Assembly (NCBI GenBank): GCA_964428315.1
Contig: CAYRXT010000012.1
Span: 562 to 64,561 of the forward strand
DNA: 64,000 nucleotides
Direction: 5' to 3'
DNA from: an uncultured Planctomycetales bacterium
GTDB taxonomy: Bacteria > Omnitrophota > Gorgyraeia > Zapsychrales > CAYRXT01
Numbering within the stretch: the first letter of the stretch is position 1; the number at the start of each line of letters is the position of its first letter. Shown piece after piece: positions 24,343 to 52,442 of the stretch. The position numbers were made by a program, and so were the translations under genes. Below the pieces are notes generated by a model that was not told the origin of the DNA, made no database searches, and saw only the letters and a program-made list of their open reading frames with translations.

Positions 24343-24504
24343 AAAACCGGCGGAGGGTTCCCGTTGTTCATAAAAAATTTTGTCACGGCGCCGGCAGTAT
24401 GGTATACTCAATCCATACAACCTGAAACCGCGCGGCGTTGCAGCCGCGACGATCACCCATCCAACTGAATATCCAAAACAGGGGGATGGGATTTTTTTTG
24501 CCTT

Positions 24505-32646: not shown

Positions 32647-32995
32647 TTAAACCGTCATGATCCTGTTTGTCCGGTGTTTGGTGACCATCATAACATAAAT
32701 TAAGCTTGAGTTGGGCGAAAATATTTAGGTCTGTGATTTGAGTCTGTCTTTGAGTCTGTCATTTAAGCCCTATATTTCCGTGATGGTTCAAAGAGCGCTC
32801 CCGTACTTCCCGTCCTGGATGTCCAGGCATCCCGGCGGAGTGGGCAGGTCCCGAAAACGTAATGGGTTCCTTGTTATACAATAAACGCCCCTTCAATCTT
32901 CACATGCAATTTTCTCTTCTCCCTCAATTTTCCCTTGCCTTTCTTTGACTAAAGAGATAACATACATTCTCGTTTTGGATTATGAATCAAGGAGG

Positions 32996-35494: not shown

Positions 35495-35676
35495 TTTTGC
35501 GTCTTAAGAATCCATTACACCGTGGAAACCCGTAAAAGCCATATGTCCGCTGGCGGGTGGTGCGGGCTGCTTTGATGTCCGGCCCGTGAAGCCGCGTGAA
35601 CATAGTCCTGTTGACGATCGGCCGTCCTATTCCGTATCCCGGATTGCCGGCAGGAGAACATTGTCGGAATAAAACC

Positions 35677-39970: not shown

Positions 39971-40026
39971 GGAATCAATCAAATCCCTGCCAAAATAATG
40001 TAGTGAATTAAGGAGAATCACGCGCA

Positions 40027-41709
40027 ATGAAAGAGATTGTGTTCGGACTCGCGGGCGGGCTCGGGCTGTTTGTTTTCGGTATGAAGTATCTGTCGGACGG
40101 CATGCAGAAGGTCGCCGGCACGAAGCTCCGCCGCATTTTGAGATCCTTGACGCAGAACCGTTTACGCGGCGCAGCCCTGGGGACGATGGTCACAAGCGTA
40201 ATCCAGAGCAGCAGCGTGACAACCGTCATCCTAGTCGGCTTGATCAATGCCGGAGTTATCAGCCTCATGCAGTCGGCCAGCGTCATTATCGGAGCCAATA
40301 TCGGGACGACCATTACGGCGCAGATCATTGCCTTTAAGATTTCCCAGTACGCCCTGCCCGCCATCGGGGTCGGCGTGGCCATGATGCTGATGTCTCGGAA
40401 GAAAAAGACGCAGTTCTGGGGGCAGGTCATCCTGTCTCTCGGCATGGTCTTTTTGGGCCTGTCGACGATGTCGGGCGTTATGAAACCGATGAAAGATTAT
40501 CCTGCTGTCCTGGATTTCTTTGTTTCTCTCAGCGACAAACCGGTCCTGGCCATACTCCTGGGAGTCGTCTTTACGGTGATGGTCCAGTCCAGCAGCGCGT
40601 CCATCGGGCTGGTCCTGGCACTGGCCAGCGCGGGACTGATCGATTTCCAGGCCTCGCTCTTTCTGATCCTCGGCGACAACATAGGAACGACGGTGACGGC
40701 CTGGCTGGCGAGCATCGGGGGGAGCACTTCGGCCAAACGCATGGCATGTTTTCACAGCATCTTCAATATCGTCGGTGTGGCCTATTTTGCTTTCCTTGTC
40801 TATTCTGGTGTTTATCCCAAATTCATTGATTTGATCACACCGGGCGCGGTGACGAGCGAGACGATCGCGCGGCATATCGCCAACGCGCATACCTGCTTCA
40901 ATGTCTTTAACGGCATGGTGTTTATTTTTGTTATGGGGCCGATCGTGCGTTTTATCGAGCGGATTATTCCCGGCCGAGATATGTATGTCTCGACGGAATT
41001 CAAATATCTCCAGGACAAGCTGTTGTCGAGCCCGGAAATCGCCATCGACAGCGCCAAAAAGGAGCTGGCTGTTATGGGACAGCTGGTTCAGAAGACGGTG
41101 AAGACGGGGGTGGAGGGATTTTTCTCGCGGGATAACAAGTCCATACCGCATGTCCATACCCAGGAAAGCGCGACGGATCATCTCCAGCATGACATAACTT
41201 TCTATCTGGCGAAGCTGGCTACCCAAGAGCTGACGAGCGAGCTGGGCGGACAGCTGCCCGCGTTGCTGCATTCAATCAATGACATGGAACGGATTGGCGA
41301 TCATGCCATGAACATCGCCGAGTTAACCGAACGCGTCTATTCCGACAACCTGGTCTTTTCCAATAAGGCCATGGCGGAGATGCGCACCTTTTACGGCAAG
41401 ATCGAAGACATGTTCGATGACGCGCTGAGGACACTCGAGAAGGGTGACAGAAATGCGGCCGACAGGGTGATGCATTACGAAGGCCAGGTGAACATGATGC
41501 AGCGAGAATTCCTTGACAACCATTCACAGCGCCTCTGTCAGGGTAAATGCGATCCGCACAGCGCGCTGGTCTTTGTCGATTTTGTCAACAACTTGGAGAA
41601 GATCGGGGATCATCTGACCAATGTCGTCCAGGCCTCACGCGGCGGGTTCGCGATGGAGGGTATGGGAGACGAGGACGAGCAATACACGCCGGTAGGCTCT
41701 TCCGGCTGA
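40027..41709 (+). CDS. Na+/phosphate cotransporter family protein (NptA-like) with C-terminal PhoU-like domains
   Basis: Duplicated Na_Pi_cotrans repeat (QSSSVTTVILVGL...; QSSSASIGLVLAL...). The cytoplasmic C-terminus has PhoU-like helical repeats (INDMERIGDHAMNIAEL; VNNLEKIGDHLTNV). Confidence 0.85.
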   Translation: MKEIVFGLAGGLGLFVFGMKYLSDGMQKVAGTKLRRILRSLTQNRLRGAALGTMVTSVIQSSSVTTVILVGLINAGVISLMQSASVIIGANIGTTITAQIIAFKISQYALPAIGVGVAMMLMSRKKKTQFWGQVILSLGMVFLGLSTMSGVMKPMKDYPAVLDFFVSLSDKPVLAILLGVVFTVMVQSSSASIGLVLALASAGLIDFQASLFLILGDNIGTTVTAWLASIGGSTSAKRMACFHSIFNIVGVAYFAFLVYSGVYPKFIDLITPGAVTSETIARHIANAHTCFNVFNGMVFIFVMGPIVRFIERIIPGRDMYVSTEFKYLQDKLLSSPEIAIDSAKKELAVMGQLVQKTVKTGVEGFFSRDNKSIPHVHTQESATDHLQHDITFYLAKLATQELTSELGGQLPALLHSINDMERIGDHAMNIAELTERVYSDNLVFSNKAMAEMRTFYGKIEDMFDDALRTLEKGDRNAADRVMHYEGQVNMMQREFLDNHSQRLCQGKCDPHSALVFVDFVNNLEKIGDHLTNVVQASRGGFAMEGMGDEDEQYTPVGSSG

Positions 41710-41728
41710 GGGGATTAAAGTAATAAAC

Positions 41729-41777
41729 GGCCCCCTTCCCCTCCGCTTAAAGCGGAGGGGTAGGGGGCCGTTTTTTT
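41729..41777. terminator. Bidirectional rho-independent terminator
   Basis: GGCCCCCTTCCCCTCCGC-TTAA-GCGGAGGGGTAGGGGGCC followed by TTTTTTT. It sits between convergent genes. Confidence 0.75.
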
Positions 41778-41787
41778 AACAGCCAGC

Positions 41788-44133
41788 TTAGTAATGTCTC
41801 CGGGGCCTTCGGGTCAAGAGGGCCGTCAGTGCCAGGAGGCTCAGGAACGAAACAGCTATCCCCCAATAAAACGCGACGGGAACGAACCGGAAACGGATGA
41901 CATGCGTCCCGGACGGGACGAAGACGGCCCGCAGGAGATGATTGGCGGGGAAAACCCGCGTCTCCTTGCCGTCGAGGGCGGCCCGCCAGTCGGGATGGTA
42001 GGTGTCCGCCAAGACGACAAACCCGGAATTCTCCATATCCGCGGCGAGAACGACTTCATTGGGCGAATACTGGACTAAGGTGACTTTCGAGTTGTCTTTG
42101 AGCGGCGCGCGGAGTGTGTCCCGAATGATGGCGGGGACGGGAGGATGCGTGACCACGATGCCTTTGGAAAAATTCCCGAACAATCTTTTCATATGGTTGA
42201 ATGCCGATGTCTTTGATTCGACGAAGACGGCCCGGTGGACAATAAATGCCCGGGGAAAACTGGAGTTGTGGCGGTAGATATTGACTTCCCGCGAGTAAAT
42301 GGGAGTGTCCTGAAGCGGCGGCATTTTTTCCATGATCTCTCTTGCCGAAGGGGAAGGCGAGACGGTGTATTTAAGATTCAGGATGTCCAGAAAGGCATGT
42401 TTGTCCGATGGGCGACTGAGCGGGACAACAAAAAAGGCGCTGCGTTCGGTATCTTTATCGAAATAATCGGGAAAGATAAATTCGTTGACGTATTCGACGA
42501 ATCTTTTCATTAAAAGCCCTTGGTTGATGCTGAGATCATCGATACGGTATCCGGTGGCCGTATTGGGATAGAGCGTCCAGAGGATCCCGTAGACCCGCTC
42601 GCGTTCGGCTAGCGTCTTGAGGCGCTCGATATACGGAACCCGGGGAAATGAATCGTAGCGCTTCACCCGTCCGCCCGGAATATAGAGGAAGATTTCCGCG
42701 AGGAGCAGGAAAACGATGATCCAGGAAGCCGAACCCGCGACTCTTCCGCGAAAAACGACGGCGGCGTTAAAGGCGGCCAGAATGATCAATCCCGTCACGG
42801 TAGCTTTGACCGAAAGCATAAAGTGTCCGGCTCCCCGGTAATGAACAAGTCCCTCAAGGGCGAGGGCGAGGAGGATCGCGCTGAAAACGGCCGCCGCCGG
42901 CCAAAGACGGAATCGTTTCGCCATCCATACGCGTATCCCCATGCCGGCCAGGATAGAGAATGAAAAGGCAAAGAGGTGTGGGGTGTGAAAATAAAAACGC
43001 AGTATCCGCAGGACAGGAAGATGTCCGACCCAGTTGGTCAACGGGAAGTCAAGATAATTCTTGGCGAAGAGAAGAAAAACAGCTGCGGCAAAAAAATAGT
43101 TCAGCCCCTGGCGCTGGCGTCTGACCAGGCTGATGGCTGCCAGCCCCGATGGAAATATCCCGATATACCCCCACCAGTTCGGCCGGGAGAAATCAAGCGT
43201 CACCGGCACGTCCTGGACGAAATGGGGGAAAAAGAATCCCAGGACGGATTCCCGTATAATGGGCTGGCCCTCCACCTCTGCCCCCATAAAGGGCTGATGG
43301 GCGTGCCAGAACGCAACCAGCCAATCCCGCAGAAAAGGGAAAAAGACCGCCGCGCCCAGGCCGATACCCAGGGCGTAAGCGCCTCCCAGACGAAGAACGG
43401 CCTTGGCGCGCCGCGGCCTCGGGCGGACGGTTAACGACCGGAACCAGAAGTAAAGAAAGCCCATGCCGTTGACCAGAAGGACATGCTCGGGATGTCCCGC
43501 ATAAAATGTCATGGCCACGCCTGCGGCGGCCAGCCCCATACGGCGGTTGTCGGGCGAGCGGATAAGCCGTTCAATAAAGAGAAGAAGGAGGGGAGTGAGG
43601 ATCTCCACGTTGGCAAAACCGTACTGGAGAACCACCATCGGACCGCTGAGCATATAACAGACGCCTGCGCCGAAAGAAGGGATGCGGCCGAAACGGAGCC
43701 CCCGCATGAAAAGATAAGTGAAAAGACCGGCCAGGAGGAACCGGCAGAGGATCAGGGCGTCCCACCCGTAGGCCGACGGCAGAAAATAAAGCAGGAAATT
43801 CAGCGGCCAGAAAAAACCCAGGTGCATCATGCTGATGAAAGGATACCCGCAGCCCTGATGGGGATTCCATAACGGAAAGAAGCCTTCCCGGAGGCAACCC
43901 TTGATAAAGGCGTACATCGGCTCTTCCATGAAAGAGGTCGTTGTGCTCTGGACGGGGAAAAAGGCGGGCTTGTTGTCCTCCTGGCCCAAGGGACCTGAAT
44001 AGAGCGCCTGCGGATTGCCGGTTCCGATCTTAAAGGTGTGTCCCGAAAAGACAACGTCCGAGAAACAAAGGGCCAGAACAAAAGCGAAAAGGAGGACTAT
44101 GAGGCTGTATTCTTTGAAAAGGGAACGTTTCAT
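41788..44133 (-). CDS. YfhO-family GT-C-fold membrane glycosyltransferase
   Basis: 781 aa. About 14 TM helices, then a periplasmic C-terminal domain and a final TM. The C-terminal block LADTYHPDWRAALDGKETRV resembles the YfhO YyPGWkA motif. Architecture matches YfhO. Confidence 0.65.
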   Translation of the reverse strand: MKRSLFKEYSLIVLLFAFVLALCFSDVVFSGHTFKIGTGNPQALYSGPLGQEDNKPAFFPVQSTTTSFMEEPMYAFIKGCLREGFFPLWNPHQGCGYPFISMMHLGFFWPLNFLLYFLPSAYGWDALILCRFLLAGLFTYLFMRGLRFGRIPSFGAGVCYMLSGPMVVLQYGFANVEILTPLLLLFIERLIRSPDNRRMGLAAAGVAMTFYAGHPEHVLLVNGMGFLYFWFRSLTVRPRPRRAKAVLRLGGAYALGIGLGAAVFFPFLRDWLVAFWHAHQPFMGAEVEGQPIIRESVLGFFFPHFVQDVPVTLDFSRPNWWGYIGIFPSGLAAISLVRRQRQGLNYFFAAAVFLLFAKNYLDFPLTNWVGHLPVLRILRFYFHTPHLFAFSFSILAGMGIRVWMAKRFRLWPAAAVFSAILLALALEGLVHYRGAGHFMLSVKATVTGLIILAAFNAAVVFRGRVAGSASWIIVFLLLAEIFLYIPGGRVKRYDSFPRVPYIERLKTLAERERVYGILWTLYPNTATGYRIDDLSINQGLLMKRFVEYVNEFIFPDYFDKDTERSAFFVVPLSRPSDKHAFLDILNLKYTVSPSPSAREIMEKMPPLQDTPIYSREVNIYRHNSSFPRAFIVHRAVFVESKTSAFNHMKRLFGNFSKGIVVTHPPVPAIIRDTLRAPLKDNSKVTLVQYSPNEVVLAADMENSGFVVLADTYHPDWRAALDGKETRVFPANHLLRAVFVPSGTHVIRFRFVPVAFYWGIAVSFLSLLALTALLTRRPRRHY

Positions 44134-44290
44134 AGGATCAAAGTGAAGAGCATGATTTTGAATGACTTTATATTACAAGGCGAAGAGTTGTCTTTCAAGC
44201 CGATTCTTCGGGACGAAAAGAACATATTTTTTATGCAATTTTTCCCGAAATGTTTTACAATGAGCAATAGGTCATATCGCTTACGGCTCA

Positions 44291-45532
44291 ATGGGATGTT
44301 GCGGCGTAACACTTGACGCCCTCCCGCTGAGATTTTCGGGCAATCCCAAAAAACATTCTGTCGTGAACCAAAAAGACGCAAGACCCGCAAATTACAATTA
44401 TCTGAAAATCCTGAAAGACTTTCTGGGCGGCAGTCTGGATAGGGTCTTCAACGGTGAGATCGTCTATCCCCGTCAGCTCGAGATCCATCTGCCCTCTAAC
44501 AAGAAGGTCGCCTGCGATTTCCACTGTTACTGGTGCCAGGGCGGCAAACTCGACCAGACCCTGGCGATGGATGAAGAGAAGGCCCTGCGGTTGGTCGATG
44601 AGATCGGTCCGGGGAAATGCGAGTATTACATTTACGGGGGTGCCTATACCGAGCCGCTGTTGAATCCGTACATGATGGATTTCCTGCGTGTCACCAAAAA
44701 GCATAAGGTGCTTTTCGGCATCCATACCAACGGCTCTCAGCTTAAACCCCTGGAGGAAAAGAGCGGTTTTCTCAGCGAGGCCTTTGCGATGATGGAGCAT
44801 AAGGACTATATCTCTGTGAGCCTGGACGCCGGCCGGCCCGAGAGCCACATGAAGACCAAAAATCTCAAACACAACGTCTTTGACCAGATCATTGAGGGCA
44901 TCCGTATGATGACCGAACGCCGTGACCGCAATCCCGAGCGGCCGGCGGTGCGCGTATGTTATTTGCTGAACAAGTTCAATTCATCAGCAGGGGAGCTGGA
45001 GGGCATGGTGCGGCTCGCCCGTGAACTGCGGGTGGACTCCCTGCGGTTCTCCATCCCCTACGACCATTACGGGAAGAATTTCGGGAAGGTCCGTGACTAC
45101 AAAAAAAACGTGGAGATCCCGCAGAACGAAATCTACGAAGAACGTCTGCGGCCCATTGTCTCCCGGAGCCCTTCGGAACGTCCGTATGTTTTTTATTTCC
45201 CCCCGGAGAACCAGGACGTCGACCGGATGAATTTCAGGCAGTGCGTGTACACGTATTACCAGATCACCCTGGCCGCCGACGGCAATGTCTACCGGTGTTC
45301 CAGCATCGCGTCACCGACTTTTTCTCACGGCATCGTCGGCCCTATCCCGGATTCCAAACGTGAATTCGAGGAAATGATCATACGCGCCCAGGATGCCCGG
45401 TTCGACTGTAATACATGCTGGAAGGCCGGCGCCCGCTGCAACCGTATGGCCCTGGAGATCAACAGCGCCTTCAATGCCGGGAGGGAGGAGCAGGAACCCG
45501 AACCCCTATCGCAAGATCCCGCTTATCGATGA
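44291..45532 (+). CDS. Radical SAM enzyme (sugar/cofactor-modifying type, with additional C-terminal Cys cluster)
   Basis: CDFHCYWC is a CxxxCxxC 4Fe-4S/SAM motif. A GGE-like SAM motif (YIYGGAYTEPLL) is present. C-terminal CNTCWKAGARCN suggests an auxiliary (twitch/SPASM-like) cluster. Confidence 0.75.
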   Translation: MGCCGVTLDALPLRFSGNPKKHSVVNQKDARPANYNYLKILKDFLGGSLDRVFNGEIVYPRQLEIHLPSNKKVACDFHCYWCQGGKLDQTLAMDEEKALRLVDEIGPGKCEYYIYGGAYTEPLLNPYMMDFLRVTKKHKVLFGIHTNGSQLKPLEEKSGFLSEAFAMMEHKDYISVSLDAGRPESHMKTKNLKHNVFDQIIEGIRMMTERRDRNPERPAVRVCYLLNKFNSSAGELEGMVRLARELRVDSLRFSIPYDHYGKNFGKVRDYKKNVEIPQNEIYEERLRPIVSRSPSERPYVFYFPPENQDVDRMNFRQCVYTYYQITLAADGNVYRCSSIASPTFSHGIVGPIPDSKREFEEMIIRAQDARFDCNTCWKAGARCNRMALEINSAFNAGREEQEPEPLSQDPAYR

Positions 45533-46503
45533 CAAAACATCGCGTCGCCCTGATCGGGTACGGTTATTGGGGAAAAAAACTCTTCGGTTATCTTAAAGAA
45601 AACCAGGCGTCCCGCCCCGTCTTCGTGCATTTCCGGTCTCTCAAAAAAATGCCGCCGCGACAGATCGCCGCCGAGTACGGCCCGGAGTTCATCCCTTCAT
45701 GCGGACAGATCTGGGAAGACACGGCGGTCGACAGCGTCATTCTCGCCACCCCCATCGATTCTCATTACCGTTTGGTCAAGGAGGCCTTGTCCCGCGGCAA
45801 GCACGTGCTTTGCGAAAAACCTCTCGCCTTAAGGCGGACCGAGGCTGAGGAACTGCGGTCCCTGGCCCGCCGGAAAGGTCTCGTCCTTATGACGGATTAC
45901 ACGTACACCTTTTCCCGGGCCGTGCACAAGGCATTGGCGGTTATCCGGGATAACGGCATTGGCACGATGGAAAAAATCGCCGTACGCCTGCTTCAGCCGG
46001 GACGGTTTACGGGATTCGACGTCTTCGCCCTGCTTGGTGTCCACGCCCTTTCGGTCATAGGCATGACTGTGGACCTGGACGCGTGTGTTTTTAAAGACGT
46101 TAAACCATCCAGGTATCAGGACGGACTGGTTTCGGAGGCGGCGGTGCATTTCGAGAAAGACCATAAGCGAAGCCGAAGCCGGGTGTCCGGCGAGATCCGG
46201 CTCAGCCTCCATCATCCGCAGAAAGAAAAAACGTTTATCTTTACCGGATCTGAAGGAGAGATCCGGTATTCTCCTCTGCAAAAAAATCCATTGATGTTCC
46301 GACGGACAGCAGGGGTTGGCCGGTCTCCGGAAACCGGTGCCGCCGAAAACTCTGCATTTGACGAAGGACACAATCTCCGTTTCGCACTGGAAGAATTCTT
46401 CGCGGCGGTCAATGGGGAAAGGGCCGACAACCTGGATTTTTCAGTCGCCGTGACTGGCGCAATGGAGCGCATAGTCAAAAAGGCTTCACGTGGCAAGTGT
46501 TAG
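45529..46503 (+). CDS. Gfo/Idh/MocA family NAD(P)-dependent oxidoreductase
   Basis: ATGA overlap with the rSAM gene. HRVALIGYGYWGKK is a Rossmann motif. The EKPLA consensus block (VLCEKPLALR) is present. Confidence 0.8.
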   Translation: MTKHRVALIGYGYWGKKLFGYLKENQASRPVFVHFRSLKKMPPRQIAAEYGPEFIPSCGQIWEDTAVDSVILATPIDSHYRLVKEALSRGKHVLCEKPLALRRTEAEELRSLARRKGLVLMTDYTYTFSRAVHKALAVIRDNGIGTMEKIAVRLLQPGRFTGFDVFALLGVHALSVIGMTVDLDACVFKDVKPSRYQDGLVSEAAVHFEKDHKRSRSRVSGEIRLSLHHPQKEKTFIFTGSEGEIRYSPLQKNPLMFRRTAGVGRSPETGAAENSAFDEGHNLRFALEEFFAAVNGERADNLDFSVAVTGAMERIVKKASRGKC

Positions 46504-46570
46504 GTACATGCTTAAGCGGCAGGCCTTATGGAACCATGTCTCTTGAAATCGGACGCCTTCTGGTTATATT

Positions 46571-47563
46571 ATGCGGAAGAAGATAAAACATTGGTACTAT
46601 TTTGCCGGTCTTGCGGCGTTTCTCCTGCTTGTCGCCCGGTCGGATCCTTCAAAGATCAACGAGGCCCTTGCGGCGTCCGATACCGGCCTTCTGCTGGCAG
46701 CCGCGTTACTTTCCTTGGGTGTGCAGTTCGTCAAGACGCTTCGCTGGATGGCCTTGCTTCGGCTTTACGGCATCCTCCTGCCGCTGGGATCGGCCTTTTC
46801 CATTTATCTGACCGGCACCTTCCTGGGGACGGTTACGCCGGGACGCCTTGGCGATGCCAGCCGGATATTTTATCTGAAAAAAAGGCCGGGTGGCGATCTC
46901 CCGGCCGGACAGCTGTTGGCTAACATCGTGGCGGACCGGATAACGGACATCGTGACGGTGTTCCTGGTAGCCTTTACAGGGGTGGTTTACTACCTGAAGG
47001 ACCACCGGCTTTGGGTTATCCCGGCGGGGCTATTCACCGCGTGTTTAGTTCCCGCGCTCTATATTTTTCGGCACCGGGCACTGGATGTGATTGGCAGTTT
47101 GCTGAGACTCGCAGGGAAATCAATCCCGGGCATACACTGGGAGAACCACCTGGATGAATTTGTTGAAGGCCTGCGAAGGCTGCGCACAGCCGGGATCGCG
47201 TCCGCCGCGGGCTGGAACGCCGCGGCCTACGGTGTCTTCTACGCCGCCGTTGTGCTGATCGCCCGGTCGATTGGGATAACAACCCCCGTATTGTATTTGA
47301 TAACAGCCTTGTCCGCGGCGATGCTGGTGTCGGTCCTGCCGGTTTCTGTGGCCGGTATCGGCGTGAGGGACGCGGTCCTTTTGTTTTTCCTTTTCCTGCC
47401 GGGCGGTGTAAAATATGAAATGGTTTTGGTTTTTTCGATGATGTACCTGTTTCTTTTGCTTATCCTGCCGGCACTTTTGGGGGGCGTGCTGTATTTCGGT
47501 TGTTTTCCCGGAACCGAGGAGATTCGACACGGCTATAAACCATTGAAGGGAAAAGGGGGTTAA
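46571..47563 (+). CDS. Flippase-like domain membrane protein (lysylphosphatidylglycerol-synthase TM-region / UPF0104 family)
   Basis: 330 aa with 8 TM helices. Contains RWMALLRLYGI and GTFLGTVTPGRLGDASR motifs typical of the LPG_synthase_TM family. This family is frequently paired with GT2 polyprenyl-phosphate sugar synthases. Confidence 0.7.
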   Translation: MRKKIKHWYYFAGLAAFLLLVARSDPSKINEALAASDTGLLLAAALLSLGVQFVKTLRWMALLRLYGILLPLGSAFSIYLTGTFLGTVTPGRLGDASRIFYLKKRPGGDLPAGQLLANIVADRITDIVTVFLVAFTGVVYYLKDHRLWVIPAGLFTACLVPALYIFRHRALDVIGSLLRLAGKSIPGIHWENHLDEFVEGLRRLRTAGIASAAGWNAAAYGVFYAAVVLIARSIGITTPVLYLITALSAAMLVSVLPVSVAGIGVRDAVLLFFLFLPGGVKYEMVLVFSMMYLFLLLILPALLGGVLYFGCFPGTEEIRHGYKPLKGKGG

Positions 47564-47565
47564 AT

Positions 47566-48483
47566 ATGGATGTCCCGATGGTCTCAGTCGTGGTCCCACT
47601 GTATAACGAGGCAAAGAATCTGGAAGAGCTGGCAGAACGCTGCCGTGCTTCTCTGCAGAGGGAGGGCATGGCGTTCGAGCTGATTTTCGTCAATGACGGT
47701 TCCACGGATGAGAGCGAAGATGTCCTCGCCGGTCTGCACGGGGATCATGCTTGCGTATCGGTCGTTCATCTCAGGACGAGGACAGGCAAGGCCGGGGCCC
47801 TGGAGGCGGGGTTCCGTCTTGTCGGCGGCAAATACGTTGTCGTGATCGACAGCGACCTGCAGCACGCCCCCGAAGATATCCCCGTCATCATAAAAAAACT
47901 CGAAGATGGTTACGACGTGATCTCCGGAAAAAGACGCGACCGCCAGGACGCCTCCGGGAAACTCATGAGTTCCAGGCTGTTCAACGGGCTGATCCGCGTC
48001 ATGACGGGTTCCCGGCTGGAAGACCTCTTTTCCGGATTGAAGGGTTTTCGCATGGATGTGGTCAACGGACTGCGCCTGTACGGAGATCTTTACCGTTTTG
48101 TCCCGGTACTGGCGGCGCGGTACGGTTATCGCGTGAGGGAGATCCCCGTCGGACATTTTCCGCGCAAACACGGGGAGTCCCGTTATTCCTCCGGCGCGCG
48201 CTGGCGCAGGGCGCTGGGCGATCTGGCCATGGTGATGTTTACGGTGAATCTCAATCCGGAGAGATTGACGCATCTTTTTTTCTTCGGCGTCTTGTGCCTT
48301 GTGACGGCCTCGGCCCTGTATCTTGCCGGCGGATCGGGTGTTTCGTGCCAGGGTTTTGCAGGGCCTTTGGCCTGGCTTGGAGGAATCCTGGTTGTCCTGC
48401 GCGCGGCAGGTTATGCATTCCATAAAGTCCAGAGGAAGATGAAGGCCGTCCGTTCGGCCAATGTAAGGTGCGTTCTCCGATGA
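47566..48483 (+). CDS. GT2 polyprenyl-phosphate glycosyltransferase (GtrB/CsbB/ArnC-like) with C-terminal TM helices
   Basis: VSVVVPLYNEAKNL..IFVNDGSTDES..VVIDSDLQHAPEDI are canonical GtrB motifs. Two C-terminal TM helices. Starts 2 nt after the flippase-like stop. Confidence 0.85.
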   Translation: MDVPMVSVVVPLYNEAKNLEELAERCRASLQREGMAFELIFVNDGSTDESEDVLAGLHGDHACVSVVHLRTRTGKAGALEAGFRLVGGKYVVVIDSDLQHAPEDIPVIIKKLEDGYDVISGKRRDRQDASGKLMSSRLFNGLIRVMTGSRLEDLFSGLKGFRMDVVNGLRLYGDLYRFVPVLAARYGYRVREIPVGHFPRKHGESRYSSGARWRRALGDLAMVMFTVNLNPERLTHLFFFGVLCLVTASALYLAGGSGVSCQGFAGPLAWLGGILVVLRAAGYAFHKVQRKMKAVRSANVRCVLR

Positions 48484-49280
48484 AGACAATAAAGATCGGT
48501 ATTTCCAATATCACGCTGCAGGGTTGTCTTTTCCCCGACGTGTTTGACCAGTTGACGCGGCGCGGTATCTCCGGTCTTGAGATTGCGCCGACTCTCGTCT
48601 GGGATAAGCCTTTGGATGTCCCGCACAAGACGCGCAGGGCCTTCAGGCACCGTATCGAGGATTACGGCATGCGGGTCATCGGTCTGCAGTCCTTGTATTA
48701 CAACCGTCCGGATCTGCAGGTGTTCGGACCGCCCGCTGTCCGAAAGAAGTGTCTGGAGCACCTGGCCGGCATGATACGGCTCTGCCGCGACATCGGCGGA
48801 CGGATCGTGACCTTCGGGGCCTATAAAAACAGAAAAAGGGGAAAAAAGACCAGAAAGGAAGCCCGGATGATCGCCGCGGCATTTTTCGCTCAGGCGGCCG
48901 GCATCGCCCAAGACAACAATGTGGTCATCTGTTTCGAACCCATCGCGGCCGCGTACGGATGCGACTTCGCCACGACCCTGCACGAGGGCCGCCGTCTCGT
49001 CGAGACAGTCGGGCATCCGTATTTCCGTCTTCATCTGGACACGGGGAGCGTGATCCTTAACCGTAAAGACCCGGTGGCCGTTTTCGAAGACTGCGTTTGC
49101 GCCCTGGAGCATATCCATATTAACGATCCCCGACTTTACCCGCCTTTGAAGAAGATCGACCTGCCGCGATTTATGCGCGCCCTGAAAAGGAGCCCATACG
49201 AGAAGTGGGTCGCGCTGGAATTCCTGACACAGCCGGATATGCTGGGAAATATCCTCAATGACATCGCGAAACACTTTTAA
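48480..49280 (+). CDS. Sugar phosphate isomerase/epimerase (xylose-isomerase-like TIM barrel)
   Basis: ATGA overlap with the GT2. Size and pattern (GLEIAP...HLDTGSV...HIHINDP...WVALEF) fit the AP_endonuc_2/TIM-barrel family. Confidence 0.65.
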   Translation: MKTIKIGISNITLQGCLFPDVFDQLTRRGISGLEIAPTLVWDKPLDVPHKTRRAFRHRIEDYGMRVIGLQSLYYNRPDLQVFGPPAVRKKCLEHLAGMIRLCRDIGGRIVTFGAYKNRKRGKKTRKEARMIAAAFFAQAAGIAQDNNVVICFEPIAAAYGCDFATTLHEGRRLVETVGHPYFRLHLDTGSVILNRKDPVAVFEDCVCALEHIHINDPRLYPPLKKIDLPRFMRALKRSPYEKWVALEFLTQPDMLGNILNDIAKHF

Positions 49281-50697
49281 GACGAGGCAGAGAACGAAAA
49301 CACGATGTCTGCTTTTTTTGGCGGCAGGGATTCTTGTTTTTGCGCTGCTGTCGGGCGGGAGGGCGGCGCTCCCGGTCTTCGCGCAGTTGCTTAAAGAGGA
49401 CTTCCCCCTCCTGGAAGACCGGATCGTAGAAAAGATAAACCGCACCCGCGCAAAGAAGGCGGATGCGCTGAGCACGCAGGCCATGCGCCATATGCGCGAG
49501 GGGAACCCGAAAGCCGCCGCACGTTTGCTCCGGCAGGCCCTGGAGGTCTCCCCCAATTATTCCAAGGCTTATACCCTGCTGGCGCAGATCCATCTCATCC
49601 GCGGCGAGGACGATGAGGCGTGGAAGGTCCTGGAACAGTCGGGGCGTTATCCGACCAAATCGGATTTCATTTACGCGTTTCTCGAAGGCTACACATCCAG
49701 AACATCCCGCCGGAAAGAACACACCCGGATTTATCTGGCGCCCTTCAAGGATGACAAGGAGTGCGCTGTATCTTTAAGCTTTGATGACGGCTTCTCGACG
49801 ATTTTCACGGAGATCCTTCCGGTTTTCGACAAATACGGTTTCAAGGCAAGCTTGTTTATCAATCCCGGCGTTATCCCCGATGAACCGGTTGCCGGACAGG
49901 TGTGGAGGGGGAGCTGGGCGTACTGGCGGGATGCAAGGAAACGGGGGTTTGAGATCGGCAGTCATTCTTTGACCCACCGGGACCTTACAAAGGTCCCTCC
50001 TGGCGTGCTGGAGGAGGAGATCAGGGAAAGCCGCCGGCTCATTGAAGAGAAGGTTGGAGGACCGGCGGTATCCTTCGCCTTTCCCTTCGACCGTGCCAAC
50101 AGCCGGGTGATCAAAAAGGTTCGGCAATACTATGAGGCCGTCCGCGATCACGACGTGTTGAAAGAGACATATCCGCGTGTCTTCCTTCCGGTTTTCGGCG
50201 GAGAGCATTTTTCACTGAAGACCGCTGTGGACATAACCCGGCTGGCGATACAAAAGAACCTCTGGCTGATCCCTGAGCTGCACGCTTTGAAAATGGAGGA
50301 TATGCCGGCCTTTAAACCCGTCACCGTGCAGTTTATCGAGGATTATCTGGCGTTTTTGAGGGAGCGGGAGTCTTCCGTATGGGTGGACACGTTTATCAAC
50401 GTGTTCCGCTACTTGAGGACAAAAAAGGATGTGTCGCTGGATGTTATCGAGGAAACGGAGGATTCGGTTGTCTTTGCTCTTTGGGGTCCTCCAGAAGGCG
50501 GGTGGGCTGGCGAGCCCCTGACCGTGGTGATCCAAGAGCGTATACCATCTTTCAAGAATATCCGTGCCGTGTACGGAGACGGAACGCCCCTTGCGTCGCC
50601 CGATGTAAGGGGCTCCAAAGTCCTGCTGTCCGTGATTCCCGACGGCAGGAGGGTCAAAGTTAGCTGGAAAAAAGAAAAGAGGGAAGACCGGCAGTAG
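49258..50697 (+). CDS. Polysaccharide deacetylase (CE4, NodB-homology) with N-terminal TM anchor and TPR-like segment
   Basis: NodB motifs LSFDDG and HSLTH are present, followed by a C-terminal extra domain. N-terminal TM, then TPR-like helices (AARLLRQALEVSPNYSKAYTLLAQIHLIRGEDDEA). Confidence 0.75.
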   Translation: MTSRNTFKTRQRTKTRCLLFLAAGILVFALLSGGRAALPVFAQLLKEDFPLLEDRIVEKINRTRAKKADALSTQAMRHMREGNPKAAARLLRQALEVSPNYSKAYTLLAQIHLIRGEDDEAWKVLEQSGRYPTKSDFIYAFLEGYTSRTSRRKEHTRIYLAPFKDDKECAVSLSFDDGFSTIFTEILPVFDKYGFKASLFINPGVIPDEPVAGQVWRGSWAYWRDARKRGFEIGSHSLTHRDLTKVPPGVLEEEIRESRRLIEEKVGGPAVSFAFPFDRANSRVIKKVRQYYEAVRDHDVLKETYPRVFLPVFGGEHFSLKTAVDITRLAIQKNLWLIPELHALKMEDMPAFKPVTVQFIEDYLAFLRERESSVWVDTFINVFRYLRTKKDVSLDVIEETEDSVVFALWGPPEGGWAGEPLTVVIQERIPSFKNIRAVYGDGTPLASPDVRGSKVLLSVIPDGRRVKVSWKKEKREDRQ

Positions 50698-50862
50698 ACC
50701 GTCTTCCGGGGCTCCTCGCCTCTGTCCCGCCATTTCCATCGGGAGAGAGATCTGTTCTCAGACGGGGATGTCAAAAAACGCAACTATGACTTGTTTAGTG
50801 GACATTCACTCTTATAATGAAGGCAGGACACTTTTTATGCATCTAGTCTCCCAAATCCTGCG

Positions 50863-52140
50863 ATGAAAAAAGGCATAACGAGAACGGGTATCGTGTTTTT
50901 AAGTGCGGCCTTTTTTATGCTTTTCCGGTGTCCCGTCGCCCTCAGCCGGCCCCGGCCTTCTTTTGAATCCGATAATCAAAGGCAGATCCATATCGTCCAG
51001 CGCGAACTGGATTGCGTCGAAGCCTCCCGAATGAAAAATGTTCCTTGTTCATGGGAGGACATTTGTTATACGGGAACGGTGTATCACGGCGCGTCCCGCC
51101 AGCGAGCCGTCGAGGAGGCCCTGGATAAACAGGAATCCCGTCGCAGGACGTCCGTCAAGATACCCGGGGATCCCATATACGTCGAAAGCCCGGTAACCGA
51201 CATGCCGGTGACGCGTTTTGTGGGACGTTATGACTTTGCACGAGAAGACCTGCCCGCCCTGCCCCTGGATGAAGATTACGGCTACCTTGATTCCCCTTCG
51301 GGAGGGAACAAAAAGCCTTTCAGGATCGGGCCTTATATCTCGATGATTCAATACAAAGAGCCCGGCGTGATGAAAGAGACAGGCATGATGTGCGGTCTCC
51401 AGGGAGCCTACACACACCGCTTTCACGAGAACCCGGTTATCCGTTCTTTCAGGGATATCTTCACCTCCCAGAACAAGATTAACCTGGTGCGCGTCGACGG
51501 TCTTTTCAGCTGGGGGTATGTGGATTATGAGGGAAGTCACAACGAAGACGATATCCGGGACTATATGGTCGAGACCCGCGGCGTCTTCGGCTATGACATC
51601 AACATGCCGAAAGGTTTGCGCGTGACGCCTTATGTCGGATTCGGATACCGCTATCTCAACGATGGTTTCGACAAGACGCCCGCGAAGACGGTGAACGGGG
51701 TGAATTATTACAGCGGTTACGAGCGCGAGAGCCGGTATTATTATGTCCCATTCGGCTTCGAGGGGGAAAAGAAGATGAGGAACGACTGGGCCCTTGAGTT
51801 CATGTTTGAGTACGATTTCTTTTCCCAGGGCGAACAGAAAAGCCATCTCGAGGACCAGCAGTTCGGTGGAGTGAATCCGGGATATGACACGCTGACCAAT
51901 GACCAGTCCGAAGGCTATGGATTAAAAAGCAGTGTCGGGATGAAAAAGGAATCGGGAGATTATGATTTCTTTTTTGAGACCTTTCTGCGGTATTGGTGGA
52001 TCAATGATTCGAATGTGGAATTTCTGCGCAAAAACGGGGCCTTGGTGCCGGTGCCGGGTCAGCCGGGCTATTATGAGGCCGGTTATGAACCGGAAAACAA
52101 CTCGACCGAATTCGGCATACGTGTCGGGGCTAATTTTTAG
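50863..52140 (+). CDS. Probable outer-membrane beta-barrel protein of unknown function
   Basis: Signal peptide. Tyr/Gly-rich alternating strands. The C-terminal residue is Phe (..GIRVGANF), as in OM barrel proteins. Confidence 0.55.
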   Translation: MKKGITRTGIVFLSAAFFMLFRCPVALSRPRPSFESDNQRQIHIVQRELDCVEASRMKNVPCSWEDICYTGTVYHGASRQRAVEEALDKQESRRRTSVKIPGDPIYVESPVTDMPVTRFVGRYDFAREDLPALPLDEDYGYLDSPSGGNKKPFRIGPYISMIQYKEPGVMKETGMMCGLQGAYTHRFHENPVIRSFRDIFTSQNKINLVRVDGLFSWGYVDYEGSHNEDDIRDYMVETRGVFGYDINMPKGLRVTPYVGFGYRYLNDGFDKTPAKTVNGVNYYSGYERESRYYYVPFGFEGEKKMRNDWALEFMFEYDFFSQGEQKSHLEDQQFGGVNPGYDTLTNDQSEGYGLKSSVGMKKESGDYDFFFETFLRYWWINDSNVEFLRKNGALVPVPGQPGYYEAGYEPENNSTEFGIRVGANF

Positions 52141-52164
52141 GGATCAAGGGGAGGAAGGCGGGCC

Positions 52165-52323
52165 ATGAGAATCGGCAACAAGAAGGTGACGGTCTTTAAG
52201 ATCAAAAACCGGCGCGGGTTCGCGGCGGTGTGCGAGAGGCACCTGACGGAAGGCAAGGACCGCGGTGAGGCCGTGGAACGGTTGAAGAAGGCCCTGAAGC
52301 GGACGAAGAAACGGACAACATAG
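52165..52323 (+). CDS. Small basic protein (52 aa), hypothetical
   Basis: RBS GGGGAGGAAGG before ATG 52165. It is followed by a perfect terminator hairpin. It is antisense to a probably spurious 76-aa ORF. It is below the ORF-track size cutoff. Confidence 0.35.
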   Translation: MRIGNKKVTVFKIKNRRGFAAVCERHLTEGKDRGEAVERLKKALKRTKKRTT

Positions 52324-52340
52324 AAGGCGGAAGAAAAAAA

Positions 52341-52378
52341 GGGCCCTGCACCGTACGGTGCAGGGCCCTTTCACTTTT
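52341..52378 (+). terminator. Rho-independent terminator
   Basis: GGGCCCTGCACCG-TA-CGGTGCAGGGCCC is a perfect 13-bp stem, followed by TTTCACTTTT. Confidence 0.65.
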
Positions 52379-52442
52379 CATCAGCGCCCGATGTTGCTAT
52401 AATGGGAACCCGGTACGAACCGTCTGACACAAGGAGAAACGA

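What the first reader, a model, noticed from the sequence alone, without database searches (positions are those of the whole stretch)
41788..50697. Second three-component glycosylation module (YfhO-like GT-C, flippase-like, GtrB-like GT2) linked to a radical-SAM / Gfo-Idh-MocA / sugar-isomerase / CE4-deacetylase sugar-tailoring set
A tightly coupled + strand run spans rSAM (44291), Gfo/Idh/MocA (ATGA at 45529), the flippase-like protein (46571), GtrB-like GT2 (47566), sugar-phosphate isomerase (ATGA at 48480) and CE4 deacetylase (49258). It sits next to a divergent YfhO-like GT-C (41788-44133). GtrA/GtrB/GtrC and CsbB/YfhO systems decorate LPS or teichoic acids using C55-P-sugar made by the GT2, flipped, then transferred by the GT-C. 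Here the donor sugar is apparently first remodelled by a radical-SAM enzyme with an auxiliary Cys cluster, an NAD oxidoreductase and an isomerase, and a deacetylase would act on an N-acetylated sugar in the periplasm. This implies an uncommon modified sugar, for example deoxy, C-methylated, epimerised or de-N-acetylated, being attached to an envelope polymer or protein. The radical-SAM member is the least predictable part.
Basis: partly seen in the sequence, partly recalled or inferred. Interest (0 to 1): 0.7.

Follow-up and report, generated by a model that had tools for sequence, protein, structure and literature searches.

The report
Radical-SAM sugar-tailoring envelope glycosylation operon
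This is a real gene cluster, probably from an uncultured Omnitrophota bacterium, that most likely attaches an unusual sugar to the cell envelope, and its core is an unstudied radical-SAM/oxidoreductase enzyme pair found next to sugar-transfer genes in many uncultured bacterial phyla, including ocean SAR11 relatives.

Summary
The radical-SAM (rSAM) protein is not a cofactor maturase. The GT2 has C-terminal membrane helices and resembles ArnC/GtrB. The linkage is conserved.

It is rSAM, then Gfo/Idh/MocA (GFO), then GT2, then a TIM-barrel epimerase. In 82 related loci with enough downstream DNA, GFO is the next gene in 63. The flippase-like gene recurs in only two other loci. YfhO-type genes recur in a minority. 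The TPR-CE4 deacetylase has no close homologue anywhere.

The rSAM family is compact, over 50% identical across phyla, unnamed, and carries four invariant extra cysteines (one auxiliary cluster). Its nearest solved folds include the sugar-nucleotide enzymes DesII and BlsE. The TIM barrel keeps the E-D-H-E tetrad and resembles keto-sugar epimerases such as YcjR. A sister variant replaces GFO with an aminotransferase plus methyltransferase, as in DesII-DesV-DesVI.

Best reading: keto-sugar tailoring of a common sugar, loading onto polyprenyl phosphate, flipping, and transfer by YfhO. The sugar, the acceptor and the exact chemistry are unknown.

The parts
41729..41777 (.). GC-rich hairpin followed by a T7 run, between the convergent Na/Pi-transporter gene and the YfhO gene. 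It marks the left boundary of the cluster.
   Evidence: Read directly from the sequence.
41788..44133 (-). YfhO-family GT-C-type membrane glycosyltransferase, 781 aa. It has many N-terminal hydrophobic segments, a soluble region from about 484 to 754, and a terminal hydrophobic segment.
   Evidence: Pfam PF09586 scores 65 bits against a cut-off of 28.5. The 781-aa orthologue in L031 scores 793 bits. Distant YfhO paralogues directly follow rSAM-GFO in L062/L063.
44134..44290 (.). AT-rich divergent intergenic region of 157 nt. It presumably carries promoters for both directions.
   Evidence: Sequence read. One weak sigma-70-like match on the minus strand lies at 44198-44170, but the count of such matches is no higher than in shuffled sequence.
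44291..45532 (+). Radical-SAM enzyme, 413 aa, with a CX3CX2C motif (C75/C79/C82). A twitch-like motif is also present: C318-x13-G-x4-C336 plus C376 and C383. It belongs to an unnamed, compact, highly conserved family.
45529..46503 (+). Gfo/Idh/MocA NAD(P) oxidoreductase, 324 aa, translationally coupled to the rSAM gene. The GxG motif, the EKP motif (catalytic Lys) and a His are invariant across 71 partner sequences.
   Evidence: It is the next gene after the rSAM in 63 of 82 loci.
46571..47563 (+). MprF-type 'flippase-like' polytopic membrane protein (PF03706 / TIGR00374), 330 aa.
   Evidence: Pfam scores 130 bits and NCBIfam 59 bits. Orthologues sit at the same position in L031 (219 bits) and L065 (150 bits). 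The family has been predicted to flip lipid-linked saccharides (PMC5898192).
47566..48483 (+). GT2 of the polyprenyl-phosphate sugar synthase type (ArnC/GtrB/DPMS-like), 305 aa, with two C-terminal hydrophobic helices.
   Evidence: Orthologues above 200 bits occur in L002, L016, L017, L021, L022 and L031.
48480..49280 (+). Xylose-isomerase-like TIM barrel, 266 aa, with an invariant E153-D187-H211-E247 metal/catalytic tetrad. Probably a keto-sugar epimerase.
   Evidence: AlphaFold2 model has pLDDT 89. Foldseek matches are UlaE, ketose 3-epimerases and YcjR 3-keto-glucoside 4-epimerase (TM 0.80). It follows a TM-type GT2 in 19 of 26 loci and a soluble GT2 in 0 of 8.
49258..50697 (+). Membrane-anchored TPR + CE4 polysaccharide-deacetylase protein, 479 aa. 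The FDDG and SHSLTH motifs are present. This is a lineage-specific add-on.
   Evidence: No close homologue elsewhere.
50863..52140 (+). Possible co-transcribed outer-membrane beta-barrel protein, 425 aa, with a signal-peptide-like N-terminus and a C-terminal ...GANF. Whether it belongs to the cluster is uncertain.
   Evidence: One search gives the sequence. There is a weak Autotransporter beta-domain hit below cut-off. No strong terminator lies between CE4 and this gene. It was not found in related loci.
52337..52372 (.). Strong 15-16-bp GC-rich hairpin. It is the probable right-hand end of the transcription unit.

Best explanation
This is an operon for decorating an envelope molecule outside the cytoplasmic membrane with a tailored sugar, carried on polyprenyl phosphate.

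Proposed steps, all inferred from homology and gene context:
1. A DesII/BlsE-like radical-SAM enzyme with one auxiliary [4Fe-4S] cluster abstracts a ring hydrogen from a common activated hexose. The hexose is perhaps UDP-HexNAc, since no nucleotidyltransferase or 4,6-dehydratase is in the operon. The product is a keto sugar, formed either by dehydrogenation or by DesII/AprD4-type elimination that gives a deoxy-keto sugar.
2. The TIM-barrel enzyme, a ketose-3-epimerase/YcjR-like protein with the E-D-H-E tetrad, inverts a carbon next to the keto group.
3. The coupled Gfo/Idh/MocA enzyme reduces the keto group. In sister loci a DegT aminotransferase plus a methyltransferase act on it instead.
4. 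The ArnC/GtrB-like GT2 puts the sugar on undecaprenyl phosphate.
5. The MprF-type flippase-like protein moves it across the membrane.
6. The divergent YfhO GT-C transfers it to an unknown periplasmic acceptor.
7. In this lineage only, the anchored TPR-CE4 enzyme de-acetylates the product or the acceptor.

What is shown here: gene order, domain families, catalytic motifs, conservation of the rSAM-GFO-GT2-TIM core, and fold similarities.
For: -
- The GT2 scores 134 bits to ArnC, aligns full length to GtrB, and has C-terminal TM helices.
- The nearest solved folds of the rSAM include the sugar-nucleotide enzymes DesII and BlsE. DesII makes TDP-3-keto-4,6-dideoxyglucose (PMC11434129).
- Four invariant extra cysteines sit in a CX13GX4C...CX6C pattern.
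- GFO is the next gene in 63 of 82 loci, and lies within five genes in 43 of 47 loci with at least 4 kb downstream.
- Variant loci L002, L032 and L033 have rSAM-DegT-methyltransferase and no GFO within 8-10 kb. This parallels DesII-DesV-DesVI and implies that the rSAM product is a ketone.
- The best PDB sequence hit of GFO is the KijD10 sugar 3-ketoreductase. Its EKP Lys and a His are invariant.
- The TIM barrel has an invariant E-D-H-E tetrad and Foldseek matches to keto-sugar epimerases, including YcjR. YcjR works with dehydrogenases on 3-keto-glucosides (PMC11543891).
- A precedent exists for an rSAM plus reductase pair giving sugar deoxygenation: AprD4/AprD3 (PMC7941887).
- The whole set of YfhO, rSAM, GFO, Flip, GT2 and TIM is orthologous in Omnitrophota locus L031.
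- PF03706 proteins have been predicted to flip lipid-linked sugars next to GT2 and GT-C genes in archaea (PMC5898192).
Against: - No step has biochemical support for this family. Every member is from an uncultured organism.
- DesII has no auxiliary cluster (PMC11434129).
- The KijD10 hit for GFO is barely above dozens of other Gfo/Idh/MocA proteins.
- The TIM gene tracks the membrane-anchored GT2 rather than the rSAM. This could mean that tailoring happens on the lipid-linked sugar.
- L007 has rSAM-GFO-TIM-YfhO-like but no adjacent GT2.
- The flippase-like and CE4 genes are not conserved with the core.
- The acceptor and the sugar are unknown.
Confidence: 0.55

Rival explanations
1. The parts are the same but the order differs. 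The GT2 first makes an ordinary polyprenyl-P-hexose. The rSAM, TIM barrel and GFO then remodel the sugar while it is lipid-linked, on the cytoplasmic face. This would be an oxygen-independent analogue of DprE1/DprE2 epimerisation of decaprenyl-P-ribose, or of ArnD acting on Und-P-Ara4FN. Flipping and YfhO transfer follow.
For: - The TIM gene follows a TM-type GT2 in 19 of 26 loci and a soluble GT2 in 0 of 8.
- The closest relatives of the TIM barrel (YcjR) and several relatives of GFO (glycoside 3-dehydrogenases, DgpA) act on glycosides, not on NDP-sugars.
- SAR11-type cassettes add a FAD_binding_4 oxidase, which is the same Pfam family as DprE1 according to my own knowledge.
Against: - The rSAM-GFO pair also occurs with soluble GT2 or GT4 enzymes and with no membrane GT2, in Parcubacteria, Dehalococcoidia and WOR-3.
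- The nearest rSAM folds bind nucleotide-linked sugars.
- The rSAM and TIM proteins have no predicted membrane segment, and GFO shows only one borderline hydrophobic window at 160-178.
Confidence: 0.25
2. The cluster modifies a membrane-lipid head group rather than an envelope polymer. The GT2 glycosylates a lipid, the rSAM rearranges the sugar (for example ring contraction to a cyclitol, as proposed for HpnJ or calditol synthase), a deacetylase acts on it, and the MprF-type protein flips the finished lipid.
For: - PF03706 is the MprF phospholipid-flippase domain (bioRxiv 10.1101/2022.03.11.483950).
- The hopanoid set HpnI (GT2), HpnJ (rSAM), HpnK (deacetylase) and HpnL (same membrane family) has a similar parts list. 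This is from my own knowledge and was not retrieved here.
- GFO and TIM-barrel enzymes are typical of cyclitol chemistry, as shown by the IolG and IolO hits.
Against: - None of the proteins hit the Hpn models in NCBIfam.
- The rSAM has no B12-binding domain.
- The GT2 is closest to ArnC and GtrB.
- A YfhO GT-C, which uses polyprenyl-P-sugar donors, is conserved nearby.
- The flippase-like and CE4 genes are absent from most loci.
Confidence: 0.07
3. The rSAM is a peptide-modifying SPASM/twitch maturase, or has some other non-sugar function, and merely neighbours glycosylation genes.
Against: - All those NCBIfam hits are far below their cut-offs.
- No precursor-peptide gene recurs beside the rSAM.
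- The family sits inside sugar-biosynthesis clusters in about 100 loci across many phyla, and GFO is translationally coupled to it.
Confidence: 0.03

Closest known systems
Polyprenyl-phosphate three-component glycosylation systems: GtrA/GtrB/GtrC, CsbB-GtcA-YfhO, PgfS/PgfM1, and ArnC-ArnD-ArnE/F-ArnT
   Same: - A membrane-anchored GT2 of the ArnC/GtrB family.
- A polytopic putative flippase.
- A YfhO-family GT-C.
- A CE4-family enzyme is also present, as ArnD is in the Arn pathway (ArnD family from my own knowledge).
   Different: - The flippase candidate is MprF-type PF03706, not GtrA, GtcA or ArnE/F.
- The GT2 scores far below the ArnC and PgfS equivalog cut-offs (147 against 529, and 106 against 500).
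- YfhO scores about 19 bits to PgfM1 against a cut-off of 1400.
- The CE4 protein is anchored with its bulk predicted outside the membrane, and it carries TPR repeats.
- None of these known systems contains a radical-SAM, GFO or TIM tailoring set.
DesII (with DesV and DesVI) of TDP-desosamine biosynthesis, and BlsE
   Same: - Best or near-best structural matches to the rSAM.
- They act on nucleotide-linked sugars.
- DesII generates a 3-keto sugar that an aminotransferase and a methyltransferase then process (PMC11434129). This matches the variant loci with rSAM-DegT-MT.
   Different: - Identity is only 16-20%, and there is no significant sequence-level match.
- DesII binds a single cluster, whereas this family has four invariant extra cysteines.
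- DesII and BlsE belong to antibiotic pathways, not to envelope glycan loci.
AprD4/AprD3: radical-SAM 1,2-diol dehydratase plus NADPH reductase, giving sugar C3' deoxygenation
   Same: An rSAM paired with a dedicated nicotinamide-dependent reductase, working through a keto intermediate (PMC7941887).
Twitch radical-SAM sugar/cyclitol enzymes BtrN and SpeY
   Same: A single auxiliary cluster bound by a CX9-15GX4C-type beta-hairpin motif. They oxidise a secondary alcohol to a ketone.
YcjQ/YcjR/YcjS of E. coli, and ketose 3-epimerases
   Same: A TIM-barrel epimerase with the E-D-H-E tetrad working alongside a Gfo/Idh/MocA dehydrogenase on 3-keto-glycosides (PMC11543891).
   Different: Those systems are catabolic and soluble, with no rSAM and no glycosyltransferase. 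Sequence similarity is weak, about 23 bits to ketose 3-epimerases.
Archaeal AglD-type GT2 fused to, or next to, a PF03706 domain and a PMT/STT3-like GT-C
   Same: The same trio logic of GT2, PF03706 and GT-C was predicted by comparative genomics. A polysaccharide deacetylase is sometimes adjacent (PMC5898192).
   Different: Those are archaeal, dolichol-based N-glycosylation systems with no rSAM/GFO/TIM set. Flippase activity on lipid-linked sugars has not been demonstrated there either.

Membership tests
Radical SAM superfamily | CX3CX2C cluster motif within a PF04055 core | tested here: met
SPASM/twitch radical SAM subgroup | A C-terminal CX9-15GX4C beta-hairpin plus further cysteines that ligate one or more auxiliary [4Fe-4S] clusters | tested here: inconclusive
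   The sequence motif C318-x13-G331-x4-C336 is present, and C376 and C383 are invariant. Strands at 324-327 and 332-334 are followed by helices. No Pfam SPASM or Fer4_12 hit was found. Cluster binding cannot be shown in silico.
DesII / BlsE | Sequence-level homology and the same cofactor content | tested here: not met
   Only fold-level similarity was found. Against BlsE the profile E-value is 0.03, and there is no hit to DesII. DesII has a single cluster (PMC11434129).
   The best hit is TIGR04317 at 58 bits against 380. All 14 hits are far below their cut-offs.
Polyprenyl-phosphate glycosyltransferases (ArnC/GtrB/DPMS type GT2) | A GT-A GT2 catalytic domain followed by C-terminal transmembrane helices | tested here: met
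   PF00535 scores 114 bits. ArnC scores 134 bits, and GtrB (sll0501) scores 104 bits over residues 6-294. Hydrophobic segments lie at 237-255 and 259-277.
ArnC (equivalog) | NCBIfam NF007986 score at or above 529 | tested here: not met
   147 bits.
YfhO family GT-C | PF09586 match, a polytopic N-terminal region, and a large extracytoplasmic C-terminal domain | tested here: met
   65 bits against a cut-off of 28.5. About 9-10 hydrophobic segments lie before residue 483, then a soluble stretch, then a terminal segment at 755-773. Topology was not predicted with a dedicated tool.
Gtr-type three-component system | A GtrA-family (PF04138) small flippase alongside GtrB and a GtrC-type transferase | tested here: not met
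   No protein scanned in the cluster matched a GtrA-type family. The candidate flippase is PF03706. It may work like a Gtr system but is not a member.
MprF-type flippase domain (PF03706 / TIGR00374) | Full-length match to the family model | tested here: met
   130 bits over profile positions 3-302 of 302. TIGR00374 scores 59 bits against 43.
MprF-type flippase domain (PF03706 / TIGR00374) | Translocation of a polyprenyl-P-sugar | not testable with these tools
   Only comparative-genomic predictions exist (PMC5898192; bioRxiv 10.1101/2022.03.11.483950).
CE4 polysaccharide deacetylases | A NodB domain with an Asp-His-His metal triad and a catalytic Asp | tested here: met
   PF01522 scores 74 bits. 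FDDG and SHSLTH align with CE4 structures. Motif 3 is AFPF rather than RPPY, as in some Bacillus CE4 proteins.
Gfo/Idh/MocA oxidoreductases | An N-terminal Rossmann GxGxxG motif and an EKP motif carrying the catalytic Lys | tested here: met
   PF01408 scores 73 bits. The GxG motif, E-K-P and a His are invariant in 71 sequences.
Xylose-isomerase-like TIM barrel keto-sugar epimerases | An E-D-H-E metal/catalytic tetrad on the barrel | tested here: met
   E153, D187, H211 and E247 are invariant. Foldseek TM scores are 0.7-0.8 to UlaE, D-psicose and tagatose 3-epimerases, and YcjR. Epimerase activity itself was not tested.
Hopanoid side-chain set HpnI/J/K/L | Matches to the Hpn NCBIfam models, and a B12-binding domain in the rSAM | tested here: not met
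   No HpnI, HpnJ, HpnK or HpnL hits were found, only a 25-bit hit to HpnB. No B12-binding domain was found.

The most novel reading that the evidence does not exclude
The rSAM-GFO pair, often with the TIM epimerase, may be a previously unrecognised radical route to a rare hexose that is used for primary cell-envelope glycans rather than antibiotics. The hexose could be deoxygenated or stereo-inverted through a keto intermediate. The pair is widespread in uncultured phyla: Omnitrophota, Parcubacteria, Dehalococcoidia, WOR-3, Elusimicrobia, Dependentiae, Nitrospinaceae and SAR11-type Pelagibacteraceae. It also occurs on contigs classed as viral. In Omnitrophota and SAR11 it feeds a polyprenyl-phosphate pathway, possibly acting on the lipid-linked sugar itself as an oxygen-independent counterpart of DprE1/DprE2.
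Probability: 0.45. Interest if true: 0.72.

Novelty: new variant of a known kind. Interest (0 to 1): 0.55.

Why it matters
As far as I know, the characterised radical-SAM enzymes that tailor sugars (DesII, BtrN, AprD4, BlsE, SpeY, GenK and others) come from antibiotic pathways.

Here a distinct family, over 50% identical across phyla, is fixed next to an oxidoreductase inside envelope-glycan loci. These loci belong to lineages whose surfaces are essentially unknown, including relatives of the most abundant marine bacteria.

Identifying the sugar would add a new nucleotide- or lipid-linked monosaccharide pathway. It would give a function to several hundred unnamed 'radical SAM protein' cluster entries (489 at 90% identity). 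It would also test whether MprF-type proteins flip polyprenyl-P-sugars. The family is small and sharply bounded, so a single biochemical study would annotate all of it.

Tried and rejected
- Sequence searches of the rSAM, alone and as a profile, against PDB gave nothing significant. Only fold comparison was informative.
- Literature searches for this gene combination, for rSAM enzymes in surface-glycan clusters, and for Omnitrophota or SAR11 found no description of the family.
- The look-up for an organism name failed. Omnitrophota is inferred from the best hits.
- The cofactor-maturase reading was rejected on score.
- The Hpn-like and RiPP readings were rejected on missing family hits and on context.
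- Rfam found no RNA element in 40000-53000.
- Promoter-like matches are no more frequent than in shuffled sequence.
- The CE4 homologue search showed it is an orphan, so it says nothing about the conserved system.
- A PHROGs scan of flanks of two IMG/VR loci found no phage structural genes, so the viral status of those contigs is undecided.
- The AprD3 paper (PMC4943880) is not held, so the protein family of AprD3 is not asserted.
- My own gene caller is crude.

Full report
**Observation**

- YfhO-like, 41788-44133, minus strand
- rSAM, 44291-45532
- GFO, from the internal ATG at 45529 to 46503
- flippase-like, 46571-47563
- GT2, 47566-48483
- TIM barrel, 48480-49280
- TPR-CE4, 49258-50697

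Direct reading of the junctions confirms ATGA overlaps at 45529 and 48480. It also shows a 2-nt gap before GT2 and a 23-nt overlap of TIM and CE4. The spacer toward YfhO is 157 nt, AT-rich and divergent.

A GC-rich hairpin with a T-run at 41729-41777 closes the left side. The next strong hairpin on the right is at 52337-52372, after an outer-membrane-like gene at 50863-52140. The flanks are unrelated: a Na/Pi transporter, isocitrate/isopropylmalate dehydrogenase and PP2C on the left, and an ABC sugar transporter on the right.

All seven Pfam assignments pass their gathering scores.

1. Housekeeping maturase? No. The best NCBIfam hit is the tungsten-cofactor maturase at 58 bits against a cut-off of 380, and every other hit is weaker.
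2. Does GT2 lack the C-terminal helices? No.
   - It scores 134 bits to three ArnC structures.
   - It aligns over residues 6-294 with GtrB sll0501 at 104 bits.
   - It has hydrophobic segments at 237-255 and 259-277.
3. Is the linkage conserved? Yes, but with a different centre of gravity, as described below.

**The radical-SAM family**

The rSAM has 489 relatives at 90% clustering. They are mostly 50-70% identical and mostly unnamed or called 'radical SAM protein'. Named sources include Omnitrophota, Pelagibacteraceae, Nealsonbacteria/Parcubacteria and WOR-3.

In a library of 1.84 billion 50%-identity representatives, only 50 entries reach E of 1e-30 or better, and many of those are fragments. 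Scores then fall away towards generic rSAM levels. The family is therefore compact and sharply bounded.

A scan of one genome per species found 19 true relatives, all in MAGs or single-cell genomes. They come from Omnitrophota, Dehalococcoidia/Chloroflexota, Pelagibacteraceae, Elusimicrobia, WOR-3, Nitrospinaceae, Dependentiae and Parcubacteria. No cultured or characterised member was seen.

An alignment of 27 members shows invariant C75/C79/C82 plus C318, C336, C376 and C383. C318-x13-G331-x4-C336 is the twitch/SPASM hairpin signature. Four ligands fit one auxiliary [4Fe-4S] cluster.

The AlphaFold2 model has mean pLDDT 84. Its matches are:

| Method | Hit | Score |
|---|---|---|
| Foldseek | DesII | E 5e-13 |
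| Foldseek | BlsE | next best |

At the sequence level nothing in PDB is significant. DesII has a single cluster and a C-terminal hairpin plus two helices (PMC11434129). This family looks like that architecture with a cluster added.

**Neighbourhoods**

I collected loci from exact-protein look-ups, the genome scan and a metagenome scan. I called ORFs crudely, clustered them and named the clusters with Pfam.

Gene directly after the rSAM, in 82 loci with at least 1 kb downstream:

| Next gene | Loci |
|---|---|
| GFO | 63 |
| Glyco_trans_1_2-like (GFO usually one to three genes further on) | 9 |
| DegT | 3 |

Families within five genes downstream, in 47 loci with at least 4 kb downstream:

| Family | Loci |
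|---|---|
| GFO | 43 |
| GT2 | 29, plus 3 giant GT2 proteins |
| TIM barrel | 18 |
| AsnB-like amidotransferase | 12 |
| B12-rSAM | 8 |
| FAD_binding_4 oxidase | 7 |
| Flippase-like | 2, plus the window |

Other points from the neighbourhoods:
- YfhO-type proteins occur in the window, L031, L062/L063 (two in tandem directly after GFO, E 4e-16 to the window protein) and, as a more distant subfamily with a TPR partner, in L002, L007, L032 and L033.
- The closest relative, L031 (Omnitrophica MAG, rSAM 70% identical), carries orthologues of six window genes. They score 793 bits (YfhO), 244 (GFO), 219 (Flip), 247 (GT2) and 217 (TIM), in the same order. An extra B12-rSAM sits between Flip and GT2.
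- The TPR-CE4 protein has no counterpart. It matched only itself and one 69-bit hit among 5.8 billion clusters.

The conserved core is therefore rSAM-GFO-GT2-TIM. YfhO is a recurrent partner. Flip is a rare partner. CE4 is a private addition.

**Two kinds of GT2**

The GT2 after GFO has C-terminal hydrophobic helices in Omnitrophota, SAR11-type, Nitrospinaceae and Dependentiae loci. It is soluble in Parcubacteria and Dehalococcoidia loci.

The TIM gene follows a TM-type GT2 in 19 of 26 cases and a soluble GT2 in 0 of 8. These counts are not phylogenetically independent.

**The partners**

- *GFO.* It keeps the GxG and EKP (Lys) motifs and a His in all 71 aligned partners. Its best PDB hit is the KijD10 sugar 3-ketoreductase at 46 bits, only marginally ahead of many others. 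NCBIfam also lists glycoside, inositol and UDP-GlcNAc 3-dehydrogenases, all sub-threshold.
- *TIM barrel.* It keeps E153, D187, H211 and E247. This is the metal/catalytic tetrad of ketose 3-epimerases. Its model (pLDDT 89) matches UlaE, D-psicose and tagatose 3-epimerases, and YcjR 3-keto-glucoside 4-epimerase. YcjR gives the highest TM-score, 0.80. YcjR works with sugar dehydrogenases on 3-keto-glucosides (PMC11543891).
- *CE4.* It retains FDDG and SHSLTH. A basic N-terminus followed by a single hydrophobic segment suggests that the bulk of the protein lies outside the membrane.
- *PF03706.* This is the MprF flippase domain. It has been predicted, not shown, to flip lipid-linked saccharides next to GT2 and GT-C genes, sometimes with a deacetylase (PMC5898192; bioRxiv 10.1101/2022.03.11.483950).

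**Mechanistic inference**

The informative variant is L002/L032/L033. There the rSAM is followed by a DegT aminotransferase, a methyltransferase, a B12-rSAM, GT2, TIM, a YfhO-like gene and a TPR gene. No GFO lies within 8-10 kb.

An aminotransferase needs a ketone, so the simplest common denominator is that the rSAM delivers a keto sugar. GFO reduces it in most loci, and DegT aminates it in the variant. This is the DesII-DesV-DesVI logic (PMC11434129). With a reductase partner it is the AprD4/AprD3 logic (PMC7941887).

The TIM epimerase also needs a carbonyl next to the carbon it inverts. All three soluble enzymes therefore point to keto-sugar chemistry.

The following remain open:
- whether the rSAM dehydrogenates (net epimerisation) or eliminates (net deoxygenation);
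- which carbon is attacked;
- which sugar is used;
- whether the substrate is NDP-linked or polyprenyl-P-linked.

The occurrence of rSAM-GFO with soluble transferases, and the DesII/BlsE resemblance, favour the NDP level. The TIM-to-TM-GT2 association and the glycoside-acting relatives favour the lipid-linked level.

**Comparison and novelty**

The export and transfer half works like CsbB/YfhO, Gtr or Arn systems, but it is not a member of any of their orthologous groups. It also uses a different putative flippase family.

The tailoring half works like DesII- or AprD4-type chemistry, but it belongs to a separate, unnamed rSAM family with an auxiliary cluster. I found no paper describing it.

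I class it as a new variant of a known kind. The rSAM-GFO family deserves attention, and I score it 0.55.

Noticed in passing
window 22474-27900: This is the 'first' glycosylation set implied by the finding's title. It has a 622-aa protein with C-terminal TPR repeats (22474-24342), a PMT_2-type GT-C (24505-25950), a GT2 (25860-26696) and a GT4 on the minus strand (26644-27900). The TPR partner proteins of the YfhO-like genes in L031 and L007 hit the 22474-24342 protein weakly.
   Followed up: partly
window 50863-52140 and 52337-52372: A 425-aa protein has a signal-peptide-like N-terminus and ends in ...GANF. Its Autotransporter beta-domain hit is sub-threshold, which suggests an outer-membrane barrel. 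It lies 165 nt after CE4 with no strong terminator between them. A 15-16-bp hairpin follows it. It may belong to the same transcript, but it was not found in related loci.
   Followed up: partly
window 28917-30761 (+) and 31087-32646 (-): Two large ORFs of 614 and 519 aa have no Pfam match at E of 0.001 or better.
   Followed up: no
P0109; L005 10626-11054: One rSAM homologue is 716 aa and carries a LAGLIDADG_3 (PF14528) domain, so it probably contains an intein. The WOR-3 locus L005 has a free-standing ORF with a faint LAGLIDADG_1 hit two genes after the rSAM.
   Followed up: no
L113-L133 (IMG/VR contigs): Twenty-one contigs classed as viral, some 100-230 kb and 28-48% GC, encode rSAM relatives at 39-54% identity, usually with GFO and glycosyltransferases nearby. 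A PHROGs scan of flanks in two loci found only methyltransferase, GtrB-like and enoyl-CoA-hydratase-like hits and no structural genes. Whether these are phages or misclassified small-genome bacteria is open.
   Followed up: partly
L003, L013, L035, L048, L054, L055 (marine, SAR11-type): A recurrent seven-gene cassette reads rSAM, GFO, TM-type GT2, TIM, AsnB-like amidotransferase, FAD_binding_4 oxidase and a 234-aa ORF. A second rSAM and a GT2 often lie divergently upstream.
   Followed up: partly
L031 13080-14435; L002 11050-12405; L032 13014-14366: A B12-binding radical-SAM enzyme, probably a C-methyltransferase, is inserted before the GT2 in several Omnitrophota versions of the cassette. It is absent from the window.
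   Followed up: no
P0170, P0215, P0244: Giant proteins of 5700-6400 aa contain a region matching the rSAM family profile at 75-127 bits. They were not examined.
   Followed up: no
L107 953-1600: On a short metagenome contig, the ORF directly after an rSAM homologue gives a weak CE4-like match to the window's deacetylase at 24.5 bits. This is the only hint of a CE4 association outside the window.
   Followed up: no
window 32945-36765: An 849-aa NHL-repeat beta-propeller protein and a YheC/D-type ATP-grasp protein lie upstream. An ATP-grasp of the same Pfam family also flanks the cluster in L031.
   Followed up: no
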